Assembly (NCBI GenBank): GCA_964106915.2
Contig: OZ066914.1
DNA: 64,000 nt
Strand: one strand, 5' to 3'
From: Podarcis gaigeae
Taxonomy: Eukaryota
Shown in pieces: positions 1,902 to 5,728 of the stretch. The first letter of the stretch is position 1. Every line of letters begins with the position of its first letter. A program made the position numbers.

Positions 1902-1952
<51 letters not shown>

Positions 1953-4900
1953 GGTTTTGGTGTCCTCGGGTGTCTTCCCGTGTAAAAGTTGGGGTGTCTA
2001 GGCGACGTTTCGACGAGGTCTCACTCGTCATCTTCAGGCTGGTGCTTTCGGCTTCTTGTTACTGGAACAGAGCGGGATCTCAATGTTTGAGTTCCTATAA
2101 ATACTGTAGAGGGGGTGTGGTGTCTAGCCTCCAATGTTCTGGGCAGAGAGGAAGTTCCCAGGCTAGTGTGCCTTTTCTTCTTTTGTTCCTTAATTACTTG
2201 AGAGATACCTTGAGTGATTTCTTGAGTGATATCCTGAGTACCACTTAGGTGGGTCATTAGGTGTGGATTAGTTGCTAAAGTCTTTGTGTCTTGACCTCTT
2301 GAACTTTGTGAAGAGTTTTCCTGAGAAGATGGCTGTATTGCACTTAGTTGTGCTTTGGCTTGGCTTCGTGTATAGGGGCGAGCTGTGGTTTTGTGGCTTG
2401 TGTCAGCCAGATCTGTGTAGGGATTGCAGGGGGGTGCAGCATCCGGAGGTGCCACCATGGATTGGCTACTGGATGGTGTCAGTAATTCATCTGTGGAGAG
2501 GGTCTGGGTTTGGGTCTGGTGTGGTTGATTGGTGTTGGCGTTCTGTGTGCCTCTGGATCTGGTGTCAGTTTTTGTGGGGAGGGCTAATTTCCAGGTGTCT
2601 GGCAAGCGGGATGTGTCGTCACGCTTGTTCATGTTGTGAGGGTGTTTCTCTATCTCGATGGCTTCCATGATTATTCTCTTGTGGTGATGTTCCGTGTTAA
2701 AGAGCAATTTGGAATCTGCAAAATTAATTTCGTGTCCTGTTTCTTTCATGTGTTGGAAAAGAGAGGAAGTTTTTTCTTCTTTTTTGACGGCATTCTTGTG
2801 TTCTGCGATACGTGCATTTATTCGTCTGTTTGTTTGTCCAATGTACGTGGCTGGGCAGACTTTGCAGGGTATTTCATAGATCCCTTGGTTTTCCAACTGG
2901 ATTTTATCCTTGGGGTTTCTGAGGATATTGGCTATTTTTTGGTTGGTGCAAAAGGCTGTTTTGATATTGTGTTTATGGAGGATTTTGCTAATTTTATCTG
3001 TAGTGCCCTTGATATAAGGAAGGAGGGCCATGCCATTGTTTTCTTCTGTGTCTTGGTTTTTGGGGGGTGTTTCCTTTTGGATTAGCTTCGTAATCCTGTT
3101 TTGCTGGTATCCATTGGCAATTAACACATTTGAGAGATTCTGTAACTCAGTTGTCAAGTGGTCTTTGTCAGCCAGGCGTTTGGTTCTGGAGATGAGAGTC
3201 TTGGCTACGGAGTTTATTTGTGCAGGGTGGTGGTGTGATTGTGCATGTAAGTAGCGGTTGGTGTGTGTTTTTTTCTGGTAGATAGTGTGTCCTAGGGAGC
3301 CATCAGGTTTTTTGTAGATTAGGACGTCAAGGAAGGGAAGTTGGTTGTTGGCTTCTATTTCCATAGTGAATTGTATTTTGGGGTGTAAGTTGTTGAGATG
3401 TGTGAGGAAGCTATCCAGTTTTTCCTTCCCGTGTGGCCAAATTACAAAGGTGTCGTCAACATATCTGAGCCAAAGTTTGGGTTTGTGTTCTGACTTGTCT
3501 AAAGCATTGGTTTCAAAGTGTTCCATGTACAGGTTTGCGATGACCGGTGAGAGGGGTGATCCCATAGGTGCTCCTTCTATCTGTTTGTATCTTTGTCCAT
3601 TGTGGATGAAGTACGTGTTGGTTAGGCAGTGGTTGGTCAGGTCCAAGATGTATTCGGGGGGATTGTATTTGTTTTGAATAGCTGTCAAGGCTTCATTAAT
3701 GGGCACTTGTGTGAAGAGAGATACAACATCGAAGCTCACAAGTAGGTCATTAGGATGTAGGTTTTGCTTCTTTATTGTTTCTATGAACTGGAAGGAGTTT
3801 GGTACGTGTGAAGAGATGGATTCTGCATAGGGCTGAAGTTGCTTGGCGAGAAATTTAGCGAGATTTTGTAGAGGTGAGCCTATGGAGCTGACTATTGGTC
3901 TGAGTGGTGTTCCTTCTTTGTGTATCTTGGGGAGGCCGTAGAGTTTGGGGCATCTGGATGATTTTTCTCTGGGGATGATTCTTAGCTGGATTTCTTCACT
4001 GATAGGAGAGGCTTTTATTTTGGATTTGGTGGTTTTTTCCAGATAGGTGGTGGGATCTGTTTTTATAGGTTTGTAGGCAGGATCTTGGAGTAGCTTTGAT
4101 AGTTTTGCTTGGTAGTCCGATGTGTTCATCACCACTGTGGCATTACCTTTGTCTGCTGGGAGAATGATTATGTTGTTGTCTTTCCTCAGGTTGGTGAGTG
4201 CTTTCTGTTCTTCTTTGTGTAAATTGCTTCTGGGTGGTTTGCTGGAGCAGAGGATGTTGGTGACTTCAAGTCTGATTTTATTGGCTTCATCTGGGTTGAA
4301 TTTGGATCTATGAAATACCCTGCAAAGTCTGCCCAGCCACGTACATTGGACAAACAAACAGACGAATAAATGCACGTATCGCAGAACACAAGAATGCCGT
4401 CAAAAAAGAAGAAAAAACTTCCTCTCTTTTCCAACACATGAAAGAAACAGGACACGAAATTAATTTTGCAGATTCCAAATTGCTCTTTAACACGGAACAT
4501 CACCACAAGAGAATAATCATGGAAGCCATCGAGATAGAGAAACACCCTCACAACATGAACAAGCGTGACGACACATCCCGCTTGCCAGACATCTGGAAAT
4601 TAGCCCTCCCCACAAAAACTGACACCAGATCCAGAGGCACACAGAACGCCAACACCAATCAACCACACCAGACCCAAACCCAGACCCTCTCCACAGATGA
4701 ATTACTGACACCATCCAGTAGCCAATCCATGGTGGCACCTCCGGATGCTGCACCCCCCTGCAATCCCTACACAGATCTGGCTGACACAAGCCACAAAACC
4801 ACAGCTCGCCCCTATACACGAAGCCAAGCCAAAGCACAACTAAGTGCAATACAGCCATCTTCTCAGGAAAACTCTTCACAAAGTTCAAGAGGTCAAGACA

Positions 4901-5728
4901 CAAAGACTTTAGCAACTAATCCACACCTAATGACCCACCTAAGTGGTACTCAGGATATCACTCAAGAAATCACTCAAGGTATCTCTCAAGTAATTAAGGA
5001 ACAAAAGAAGAAAAGGCACACTAGCCTGGGAACTTCCTCTCTGCCCAGAACATTGGAGGCTAGACACCACACCCCCTCTACAGTATTTATAGGAACTCAA
5101 ACATTGAGATCCCACTCTGTTCCAGTAACAAGAAGCCGAAAGCACCAGCCTGAAGATGACGAGTGAGACCTCGTCGAAACGTCGCCTAGACACCCCAACT
5201 TTTACACGGGAAGACACCCGAGGACACCAAAACCTGCATTCCTGTACCCGTGAAAATCTACGAAAGCATATATATATATATATATATATAAATTTTAGAT
5301 TGTCCAAAAGAATACATATTACTGATGTTGCACTGGTGCAGAAAATAAAGCTTCACACTTAAAATTTAATACCCTTCCCAGATTGCACCATAATCCACCT
5401 AGGGCAGCATTTTCCCCCAACTTTGGACAGCTGGATGCTTCTGGGAAAATTATTTATCTAGAGGAATGTTTAATCCACTATTCAAATAATTTCCATTACT
5501 GCTTATAATGCAATGACATCAAAGTAGGCACTAGGCAAGTCTCTGTATATGTTTTCCGCAGTACAGCTCTGCTAAGAAGATCACTTTCTTAGTAGCCAGT
5601 CAATGTATTTCAAATCCCTGAGGATGGCCTCTGTTGAAGTCCTTAGCTGTATATGAGATACATGTAGACAGAGGGGCTGCTTCAGGTAACCTGGCCACAA
5701 GCTGTGAAGAGCTTTAAAGGTCAAACTA

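What the first reader, a model, noticed from the sequence alone, without database searches (positions are those of the whole stretch)
1948..5267. Young Penelope-like insertion with two outward-facing 3' ends forming a ~936-bp inverted repeat
Seen: 1948-2883 and 4304-5239 are reverse complements (paired coordinates sum to 7187) around a 1420-bp spacer. I found only two mismatches (2595/4592, 2073/5114). Both junctions with the genome are element 3' ends in (TA)n, the right arm has a 28-bp tail (5240-5267) that the left lacks, and the two 5'-truncated copies join head to head at about 4304. Known: Penelope-like elements occur with inverted pseudo-LTRs and short tails. Inference: one event with two cDNAs primed from both strands of a cut in the TA tract; the near identity and open ORF suggest a recently active family.
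Basis: partly seen in the sequence, partly recalled or inferred. Interest (0 to 1): 0.75.

Follow-up and report, generated by a model that had tools for sequence, protein, structure and literature searches.

The report
Head-to-head Penelope-like retrotransposon insertion, lizard
This is a young but dead insertion of a Penelope-like retrotransposon, made of two truncated copies joined head to head inside a TA microsatellite, which is the usual look of this element class rather than something new.

Summary
Windows 1948-2883 and 4304-5239 are a 936-nt inverted repeat with two mismatches, at the stated positions, around a 1420-nt spacer.

[quoted passage not shown] The long copy is 2356 nt on the minus strand. 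The short copy is 964 nt on the plus strand. They abut head to head at 4303/4304, and both 3' ends face outward into (TA)n.

Each arm carries a minimal hammerhead ribozyme motif and the start of the next unit's ORF. The arms end 82-84 nt and 112 nt into that ORF. The longer end matches, by position, the internal reverse-transcription start reported for the Anolis PLE "PAc" (PMC11167929). The 28-nt "tail" is therefore element sequence.

The closest protein is a Podarcis muralis model (94% identity). An independent family sequence (P0124) carries the shared state at both mismatch sites, so each arm has one private change.

Inverted 5'-truncated partners, one-sided 30-40-nt tails and AT-rich targets are published PLE hallmarks. 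A single event primed from both strands is the best reading, but it is inferred. Interest is low: this is a new member of a known kind.

The parts
1906..1949 (.). Left target microsatellite, (TA)22. Its last two bases cannot be told apart from the end of the element.
   Evidence: Tandem Repeats Finder; sequence
1948..4303 (-). Long 5'-truncated PLE copy, 2356 nt. Its 3' end lies at the left junction (short-end variant, no tail). About 230-250 N-terminal codons are missing, judged against full-length relatives.
   Evidence: alignment A1
2024..4303 (-). Open reading frame of the long copy, 760 codons, with the stop at 2021-2023. It runs from RT to GIY-YIG endonuclease and then a low-complexity C-terminal extension of roughly 200 aa.
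3386..3925 (-). Reverse transcriptase core (ORF residues 127-306), including the YVDD motif.
   Evidence: Pfam RVT_1, E 4.7e-16, 59.6 bits; invariant columns in A1
2762..2884 (-). GIY-YIG endonuclease motif with the CCHH pattern (ORF residues 474-514). The same region starts the right arm at 4304.
   Evidence: Pfam GIY-YIG at 20.6 bits, below the 22.6 cut-off. In A1, C480, C483, H502 and H518 are invariant, and the GIY...YIG motif is present in 5 of the 6 rows. The row that lacks it is the Vipera model P0003, which departs from the family sequence upstream of the EN.
4304..5267 (+). Short 5'-truncated PLE copy, 964 nt, starting at the G codon of GIY. Its 3' end lies at the right junction (long-end variant, with tail). 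ORF 4306-5163, stop 5164-5166.
4303..4304 (.). Head-to-head junction of the two 5'-truncated ends. There is no TA remnant, no filler and no palindrome.
5150..5183 (+). Minimal hammerhead ribozyme motif: a CUGAAGA core, one bulged U, a 6-bp helix II, GAAA, the palindromic CG, then UC at the cleavage site. Helix I has only 2 contiguous pairs. The motif spans the ORF stop and the next ORF's ATG.
   Evidence: Own descriptor: 2 sites in the window on both strands, and no site in any of 200 shuffles. Its features match those listed in PMC4209133. Rfam does not detect it.
2004..2037 (-). The same minimal hammerhead motif in the left arm.
5156..5267 (+). First 37 codons of the next tandem unit's ORF (ATG at 5156), carried at the 3' end of the copy. 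The left arm has the first 27-28 codons (minus strand, 2031 down to 1948).
   Evidence: P0123 match over residues 1-37, 26 of 39 identical
5240..5267 (+). The 28-nt 'tail', present only on the right arm. It is element sequence lying between the two alternative 3' ends (+82/84 and +112 from the ATG).
   Evidence: position maps onto the A. carolinensis PLE ORF P0046 through P0123
5268..5290 (.). Right target microsatellite, (AT)11.

Best explanation
The locus is one insertion of an endonuclease-bearing Penelope-like retrotransposon (Penelope/Poseidon type) into a (TA)n microsatellite of a squamate genome, probably a lacertid lizard.

**Shown**
- Two 5'-truncated copies of the same element lie head to head. 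Each has a genuine element 3' end abutting the TA tract.
- One copy ends at the shorter 3' end and the other at the longer one. The 28 nt between those ends make up the classical PLE 'tail'.

**Inferred**
- The element's GIY-YIG endonuclease cut both strands of the TA tract.
- Each free 3'-OH primed reverse transcription at an internal start site about 82-112 nt into the next unit of a tandem transcript.
- The two cDNAs grew toward each other, stopped after 2356 and 964 nt, and were joined without microhomology on the side that can be checked. The join could have been a template jump from the RNA onto the other cDNA, or end joining.

Since insertion each arm has gained one private transition. 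Both copies lack the N-terminal part of the ORF and any upstream promoter region, so the insertion cannot move by itself.
For: **Anatomy.** The arms are 936 nt with 2 mismatches. The ORF has RVT_1 followed by GIY-YIG. Its best hits are P. muralis LOC144326219 at 94% identity, a Vipera latastei protein at 82% and an A. carolinensis PLE ORF at 47% (E 1.4e-156).

**Both outer ends are element 3' ends.**
- A minimal hammerhead motif and the next ORF's ATG sit in both arms.
- The 37 codons up to 5267 match the N-terminus of P0123 (E 4.2e-4 against 1.84 billion proteins; 26 of 39 identical).
- P0123 in turn aligns with residues 34-178 of the Anolis PLE ORF P0046 (E 1e-26).
- Through that alignment, our end at nt 112 falls at about nt 115 of the Anolis ORF. 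The main text of PMC11167929 reports RT initiation 111-118 nt into the PAc ORF. It also reports two adjacent start sites that delimit the tail, a preference for AT-rich cleavage, and cleavage plus extension of both strands.

**Common origin of the arms.** P0124, an independent 368-aa family sequence, has Ile where the left arm has Thr and Arg where the right arm has His. Each arm therefore carries one private change. The Arg-to-His change is CpG to CpA.

**Inner junction.** There is no TA remnant and no palindrome.

**Literature.** Passages of PMC8557442 and PMC3846280 describe an inverted 5'-truncated copy at the 5' end, and a 30-40-nt tail at one end only, as typical of PLEs.

**A possible second example.** The first 37 residues of the P. 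muralis model P0001 equal, 37 of 37, an antisense frame of the RT region. This suggests a head-to-head arrangement at that locus too.
Against: - Only one locus was seen. The window holds no other copy, and no eukaryotic genome DNA could be searched.
- Two insertions from the same master, close in time, into the same TA tract would look almost the same.
- The mapping of the 3' ends onto PAc start sites goes through two protein alignments. It assumes P0046 is PAc or a close relative, which I did not verify, because the PAc consensus is in a supplement that is closed.
- Rfam's hammerhead models do not score the motif, and its helix I has only 2 contiguous pairs.
- The fold of 5130-5267 is no more stable than shuffles (z -0.42). 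A start-site stem-loop like the one described for PAc is therefore not demonstrated here.
- The family's own N-terminus was not found by the word-indexed search (2 candidates, none scored).
Confidence: 0.7

Rival explanations
1. Two independent insertions. The long minus-strand copy inserted into the TA tract first. A second, short plus-strand copy from the same master then inserted into the remaining TA tract, exactly at the first copy's 5' junction.
For: The endonuclease prefers AT-rich DNA (PMC11167929), so a TA tract next to an existing copy stays a target. The family appears recently active, with near-identical sequences (P0124), so two separate copies could differ by only 0.2%.
Against: No TA dinucleotide remains between the copies at 4303/4304, so the second cut or join would have to fall exactly on the old junction. 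Inverted partners directly abutting the 5' end are described as frequent in PLEs (PMC8557442), which argues for a mechanistic link. Each arm has exactly one private change relative to P0124, as expected for equal age.
Confidence: 0.15
2. Self-priming (hairpin) replication, as proposed for rotifer PLEs. One cDNA or template folds back and copies itself, which produces the inverted repeat.
For: PMC3846280 (discussion passage) proposes self-priming to explain head-to-head PLE repeats with palindromes at the inverted junction.
Against: A fold-back makes arms that meet at the turn. Here the junction joins a point 2356 nt from the 3' end of one copy to a point 964 nt from the 3' end of the other, leaving a 1420-nt unique spacer. 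No palindrome lies within 40 nt of the junction. The short copy also has its own canonical 3' end, which differs from that of the long copy.
Confidence: 0.05
3. Copy of a pre-formed structure. An existing head-to-head locus was duplicated segmentally, or transcribed through and retrotransposed as a unit.
For: PLE loci are often complex tandem or inverted arrays that are transcribed (PMC11167929). The P. muralis model P0001 hints at another inverted locus in the family.
Against: Both outer ends coincide with the two canonical element 3' ends and abut a TA tract directly. A segmental duplication would bring foreign flanks. A single cDNA from a read-through transcript would have to stop by chance exactly at a canonical 3' end on the antisense side. 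The window holds no second copy.
Confidence: 0.05
4. Assembly artefact: a fold-back or chimeric read, or a mis-join of two copies.
For: PLE inverted structures are known to trouble assemblies (PMC8557442).
Against: The arms differ at two sites and in the tail. The repeat has a 1420-nt unique spacer. Outside the TA runs the flanks are unrelated to each other. The structure is exactly the published natural one. The nearest N run is about 39 kb away.
Confidence: 0.03

Closest known systems
PAc, the Poseidon-type PLE of Anolis carolinensis characterised in vitro (Frangieh et al. 2024, PMC11167929; abstract and whole main text read)
   Same: - A single ORF running from RT to a C-terminal GIY-YIG EN.
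- A hammerhead motif whose stem II begins at the ORF's ATG, with the cut site 26-28 nt downstream. Here C17 lies 28 nt from the A of the ATG.
- Copies that end inside the next ORF at two alternative sites, with the tail between them. The longer end falls at nt 112 here, against 111-118 in PAc.
- An AT-rich target.
- The PAc protein cuts and extends both strands, which is what this head-to-head insertion requires.
   Different: - It is a different family. The ORF is only 47% identical to the A. carolinensis PLE protein P0046, and I did not verify that P0046 is PAc.
- This ORF carries a low-complexity C-terminal extension of roughly 200 aa that P0046 lacks.
- The target here is a pure (TA)n tract, not the ATT motif mapped in vitro.
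- Nothing at this locus was tested biochemically.
Canonical PLE insertion architecture (Craig et al. 2021, PMC8557442, passages and Fig. 2 legend; Pen2a_Av of Adineta vaga, PMC3846280, passages)
   Same: - An inverted 5'-truncated copy lies immediately at the 5' end of the main copy.
- A 30-40-nt tail sits at one end only (31 nt in Pen2a_Av, 28-30 nt here).
- The tail and pLTR include the first codons of the ORF.
- The element carries a hammerhead motif.
- It targets AT-rich or microsatellite DNA.
   Different: - The main copy here is itself 5'-truncated, so there is no direct pLTR pair.
- The inverted arms (936 nt) are coding sequence plus the 3' region, not a roughly 200-nt pLTR.
- No target-site duplication can be read in the TA tract.
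- There is no palindrome or overlap at the inverted junction.
Podarcis muralis LOC144326219 (P0001) and the unnamed family sequence P0124
   Same: They belong to the same element family. P0001 is 94% identical over 92% of the ORF. P0124 is identical to the long copy at 366 of 368 positions, and one of the two differences is the called start residue.
   Different: P0001 is a gene model, not a curated element. Its N-terminus comes from an antisense frame and its C-terminus departs from the element. Neither record gives DNA or flanks, so their insertion structure is unknown.
Twin priming of human L1, which produces 5'-inverted insertions (recalled from memory, Ostertag and Kazazian 2001; not read here)
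   Same: The second DNA strand of the target also primes reverse transcription. Two cDNAs of opposite orientation are then joined inside the insertion.
   Different: In L1 the second primer anneals internally on the same RNA, so the two segments are adjacent, non-overlapping parts of one copy, and only one has the 3' end. Here both copies start at canonical 3' start sites and overlap by 936 nt. This requires two template copies, two units of a tandem transcript, or two passes.

Membership tests
Penelope-like elements, EN+ (Penelope/Poseidon clade) | PLE-type reverse transcriptase in a single ORF | tested here: met
   RVT_1 at E 4.7e-16, 59.6 bits against a 29.6 cut-off. Homology runs the length of the ORF to PLE ORFs: 1712 proteins at E<=0.001 among 8000 scored, including an A. 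carolinensis PLE protein at E 1.4e-156. YVDD and many other columns are invariant in A1.
Penelope-like elements, EN+ (Penelope/Poseidon clade) | C-terminal GIY-YIG endonuclease with the CCHH pattern inside the core | tested here: met
   GIY(10)YIG can be read directly, and C480, C483, H502 and H518 are invariant in A1. Pfam GIY-YIG on its own is below its cut-off: 20.6 and 19.1 bits against 22.6.
Penelope-like elements, EN+ (Penelope/Poseidon clade) | No extra CX2-5CxxC motif upstream of GIY-YIG (that motif marks Neptune and Nematis, per the PMC8557442 passage) | tested here: met
   Only one Cys lies in the 60 residues before GIY (translation, alignment). No clade tree with labelled references was built, so the clade assignment is provisional.
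Penelope-like elements, EN+ (Penelope/Poseidon clade) | Pseudo-LTRs from partial tandem insertion (direct repeats) | tested here: not met
   No direct repeat of element sequence occurs in 1-9000 or anywhere in the window. This is expected for 5'-truncated copies, so it does not count against the family. The ORF stop and the next ORF's ATG overlap by 11 nt, which shows the source was a tandem unit.
Penelope-like elements, EN+ (Penelope/Poseidon clade) | Inverted 5'-truncated partner copy and a 30-40-nt tail at one end | tested here: met
   The tail is 28-30 nt and is shown to be element sequence through P0123.
Penelope-like elements, EN+ (Penelope/Poseidon clade) | Hammerhead ribozyme motif in the terminal repeat region | tested here: inconclusive
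   A minimal-HHR descriptor of my own matches only the two arms (2 sites in the window, no site in any of 200 shuffles). [quoted passage not shown] Against this, Rfam gives no hammerhead hit even at E<=10, helix I has only 2 pairs, and activity was not tested.
Penelope-like elements, EN+ (Penelope/Poseidon clade) | AT-rich or microsatellite target | tested here: met
   (TA)22 and (AT)11 abut the two ends directly.
L1-type twin priming | Two inverted segments that are contiguous, non-overlapping parts of one RNA, only one of which carries the 3' end | tested here: not met
   The two copies overlap by 936 nt and each has its own 3' end.

The most novel reading that the evidence does not exclude
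This one insertion may record a concerted, symmetric reaction. A dimeric PLE ribonucleoprotein would cut both strands of the TA tract and start reverse transcription at both DNA ends at once. It would use the two alternative internal start sites, one per end, on two units of a tandem transcript. The cDNAs would then be joined by a template jump that needs no homology.

If head-to-head pairs across the genome carry the tail on exactly one arm more often than independent choice predicts, the one-sided tail would be a footprint of an asymmetric dimer. That would link the in vitro two-start-site result to the natural architecture.
Probability: 0.3. Interest if true: 0.45.

Novelty: new member of a known kind. 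Interest (0 to 1): 0.22.

Why it matters
This insertion does not change what is known about Penelope-like elements. It is a clean, young, natural example of their standard architecture.

Its modest value is as a specimen:
- Both alternative 3' ends occur in one event.
- The inner junction is sharp and shows no sign of homology (no palindrome, no TA remnant, and no shared bases on the one side that can be read).
- Each arm carries exactly one private change.

These are the properties a genome-wide survey would need in order to test whether PLE integration primes from both strands at once, as the 2024 in vitro work on the Anolis element suggests.

For annotation, it shows that such inverted PLE pairs seed faulty gene models. 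One P. muralis model starts in an antisense frame of the RT region. A TSNAX model ends in PLE C-terminal sequence.

Tried and rejected
- **Rfam.** At gathering thresholds over the whole window there were only two partial tRNA-like hits elsewhere. At E<=10 over 1800-5400 there were 13 weak hits, none a hammerhead, and most were microRNA models matching the TA run. I treat those as noise. The hammerhead motif came from direct reading plus a descriptor of my own.
- **Word-indexed search for the family's N-terminus.** A 40-aa query against longer proteins gave 2 candidates and none scored. The exhaustive HMMER search then gave 2 hits. I dropped P0122 because it is an 830-aa repetitive protein with no aligned stretch reported. 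I kept P0123.
- **Fold of 5130-5267.** It is no better than shuffles (z -0.42; 65 of 200 shuffles fold at least as well). The CACGGG/CCCGUG stem (5205-5210 with 5247-5252), which encloses the short end, is only a description.
- **ORC_WH_C Pfam hit on the right arm.** At E 0.0094 and 16.6 bits against a 26.4 cut-off, I took it as noise.
- **Other copies in the window.** blastn and tblastn found only the self-matches and the arm-to-arm match.
- **Literature searches.** 'Penelope-like' with 'twin priming' gave 3 papers and none appeared, from its title or abstract start in the listing, to concern PLE insertion structure (listing only). 'Penelope' with 'Podarcis' gave 3 genome or virus papers (listing only). 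I therefore found no description of this lacertid family in print in those searches.
- **Spliced models and human sequence.** Nothing in the window was taken for human.
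Full report
**1. The observation**

The inverted repeat is real and is exactly as described. The repeat finder reports arms 1948-2883 and 4304-5239, 936 nt each, 1420 nt apart. A base-by-base check gives 2 mismatches in 936, at 2073/5114 and 2595/4592. Pairing stops abruptly at both the inner and the outer ends of the arms.

- The left arm abuts (TA)22 at 1906-1949.
- The right arm is followed by 28 nt (5240-5267) and then (AT)11 at 5268-5289.
- The last two arm bases are 'at', so the short end is ambiguous by 2 nt and the tail is 28-30 nt.
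- Outside the TA runs the two flanks are unrelated to each other. A 500-nt against 500-nt blastn gave a best E of 0.36.
- The only N run in the window is 43987-44240.

**2. What it is**

*Reading frame and domains.* The minus strand carries an open frame of 760 codons, from 4303 down to the stop at 2021-2023. Read stop to stop it is 792 aa, because it runs on into the antisense of the right arm. It is the longest frame in the window; the longest frame outside the element is 207 aa. Pfam finds RVT_1 (residues 127-306, E 4.7e-16). It also finds a GIY-YIG match at residues 474-514, which at 20.6 bits is just under the 22.6 cut-off.

*The short copy.* The right arm begins at the G codon of GIY and encodes the same 286 C-terminal residues.

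*Relatives.* In the protein search, 1712 of 8000 scored candidates had E<=0.001. Among the 120 listed:
- Podarcis muralis LOC144326219 (P0001) is 94% identical over 92% of the query.
- A Vipera latastei protein (P0003) is 82% identical.
- All others are at 66% or less, including an Anolis carolinensis PLE-type protein (P0046, 47%, E 1.4e-156) and many insect proteins.

*Alignment A1.* It shows the YVDD core and the invariant residues C480, C483, H502 and H518. The GIY...YIG motif is present in five of the six rows. The exception is the Vipera model P0003, which leaves the family sequence before the endonuclease. The long copy lacks about 230-250 N-terminal residues compared with full-length relatives. 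Only one Cys lies in the 60 residues before GIY, so the Neptune-type CX2-5CxxC motif (PMC8557442 passage) is absent.

*Conclusion.* The element is an EN+ Penelope-like element of Penelope/Poseidon type in a squamate, probably a lacertid. I built no clade tree with labelled references.

**3. The 3' ends**

*Hammerhead motif.* At 5150-5183, and mirrored at 2004-2037, lies a motif made of CUGAAGA, one extra U, a 6-bp helix II with a 6-nt loop, GAAA, CG, then UC. A descriptor of my own finds it only at these two places in the window on both strands, and no site in any of 200 shuffles.

Its peculiarities are the ones that Cervera and de la Pena list for PLE minimal hammerheads (PMC4209133, passages and section 5):
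- a G10.1-C11.1 pair;
- a long helix II;
- a palindromic 15.2-16.2 with no loop 3.

Rfam does not report it, and helix I has only 2 contiguous pairs. I therefore call it a hammerhead-like motif of unproven activity.

*ORF overlap.* The old ORF's stop (5164-5166) and an ATG at 5156 both lie inside the motif. C17 is 28 nt from the A of that ATG. [quoted passage not shown]

*Where the arms end.* From that ATG the right arm encodes 37 residues up to 5267. The left arm ends at nt 82-84 and the right arm at nt 112.

*The tail is element sequence.* An exhaustive HMMER search of 1.84 billion representatives with the 37 residues gave two hits.
- One, P0122, is a repetitive protein with no aligned stretch, and I dropped it.
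- The other, P0123, matches residues 1-37 to its own residues 1-37 (E 4.2e-4; 26 of 39 identical by BLASTP).
- P0123 then continues into sequence that aligns with residues 34-178 of the Anolis PLE ORF P0046 (39% identity, E 1e-26).

So the tail is element sequence, namely codons 28/29-37 of the next unit's ORF, and not target DNA.

*Match to PAc.* Through these alignments our long end corresponds to about nt 115 of the Anolis ORF. PMC11167929 reports that reverse transcription starts 111-118 nt into the PAc ORF. It also reports two adjacent start sites, with the classical tail being the sequence between them. This locus carries one end of each kind. The mapping assumes that P0046 is PAc or a close relative. 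I could not check this because the PAc consensus is in a closed supplement.

**4. Age and common origin of the arms**

The search with the right-arm protein gave 10 proteins at E<=1e-20 among 410 candidates. The best, P0124, is an unnamed 368-aa record.
- It differs from the long copy at 2 of 368 positions: the called start residue, and Ile against Thr.
- It differs from the right arm at 1 of 286 positions: Arg against His.

P0124 thus carries the shared state at both mismatch sites, so each arm has one private transition. The Arg-to-His change in the right arm is CpG to CpA. A P. muralis TSNAX gene model that ends in PLE sequence has Cys at that site, which is the other CpG decay product.

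Arm divergence is 0.21%, with a Poisson 95% interval of 0.03-0.77%. At an assumed neutral rate of 1e-9 per site per year (my assumption, taken from no call), that is about 1 Myr, with a range of about 0.1-3.9 Myr. The element's CpG observed/expected ratio is 0.40, against 0.25 for the window. This fits a young insertion.

**5. Mechanism**

*Geometry.* With a break in the TA tract, the top-strand 3'-OH of the left half primes a cDNA. That cDNA leaves an antisense copy with its 3' end at the left junction. The bottom-strand 3'-OH of the right half leaves a sense copy with its 3' end at the right junction. This is the observed arrangement.

*Templates.* The two copies overlap by 936 nt, and each begins at a canonical start site. 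Two templates, two units of a tandem transcript, or two passes are therefore needed.

*Join.* The inner junction at 4303/4304 has no TA remnant, no filler and no palindrome within 40 nt. On the side that can be read it also has no microhomology: the sequence upstream of the short copy's start, known from the long copy, differs at the first base. The other side needs a full-length consensus.

*Published support.* PAc protein cleaves and extends both strands, prefers AT-rich DNA and is predicted to be a dimer (PMC11167929). PLE reviews describe the inverted 5'-truncated partner and the one-sided tail as typical (PMC8557442; PMC3846280).

I therefore take a single event primed from both strands as the best reading, with confidence of about 0.7 for the whole statement. 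The identity of the element itself is close to certain.

**6. Rivals**

- *Two independent insertions* from one master remain possible (0.15). The exact abutment without TA argues against them, as do the equal numbers of private changes.
- *The self-priming model of PMC3846280* does not fit. The junction joins non-corresponding positions, leaves a 1420-nt spacer and has no palindrome.
- *A copied pre-formed structure* would not end at two canonical 3' ends in a TA tract.
- *An assembly artefact* would not give arms that differ at two sites and in the tail, with unrelated flanks.

**7. Comparison with what is known**

Every feature has a published counterpart, so this is a new member of a known kind. 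My two searches (listings only) found no description of this lacertid family in print. Repbase could not be consulted.

The first 37 residues of the P. muralis model P0001 equal, 37 of 37, an antisense frame of the RT region (window 3318-3677, plus strand). This suggests a second head-to-head locus in that family, but I have no DNA to confirm it.

**8. What stayed unchecked**

- I therefore have no copy number, consensus, other inverted copies, empty site or read support.
- Supplements of the cited papers were closed.

Noticed in passing
window 1700-1775: Just upstream of the left TA tract is a stretch that ends in an A/C-rich run. From memory it resembles the conserved 3' end of BovB-type LINEs and their SINEs, which are common in squamates. 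This is recalled and was tested by no call.
   Followed up: no
window 11681-11738 (-) and 43611-43667 (-): Two partial tRNA-model matches (model positions 8-63 of 71; 32.4 and 40.7 bits). They are more likely tRNA-derived SINE heads than tRNA genes.
   Followed up: no
window 42373-42909 (-): A 179-aa open frame with a strong helix-loop-helix DNA-binding domain (PF00010, E 8.6e-21). It is probably an exon of a bHLH transcription factor gene, about 37 kb from the insertion.
   Followed up: partly
window 43987-44240: The only N run in the window, 254 bases. It was left as it is.
   Followed up: no
window 2193-2239 and 4948-4994: A short 12/24-nt tandem repeat lies inside the element's C-terminal coding extension, where it encodes repeated ITQE-like units. 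This region of roughly 200 aa after the endonuclease is low-complexity and is absent from the Anolis PLE ORF.
   Followed up: partly
window 2588-3085 and 3318-3677 (+): Long stop-free antisense frames (165 and 119 aa) run through the element. They go with its strongly skewed composition: the sense strand is 38% A and 15% G, and GC skew is 0.33 over 2001-4000. One of these frames was picked up as the N-terminus of the P. muralis gene model P0001.
   Followed up: yes
protein P0125 (UniProt A0A670HLY4_PODMU, named Translin associated factor X): The last 100 or so residues of this P. muralis gene model are the C-terminal extension of this PLE family (92% identity over 36% of the query; sequence). 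This is either a PLE fragment taken up as an exon or an annotation artefact.
   Followed up: partly
window 5730-5783: A perfect (AAT)18 microsatellite lies 460 nt to the right of the insertion. More AT-rich simple repeats follow at 5827-5893 and 6273-6318. The insertion sits in a microsatellite-rich stretch.
   Followed up: no
window 964-1020 and 6919-6962: Two short stretches share sequence on both sides of a (TA)n run (73% over 44 nt). They may belong to another dispersed repeat that carries a TA tract.
   Followed up: no
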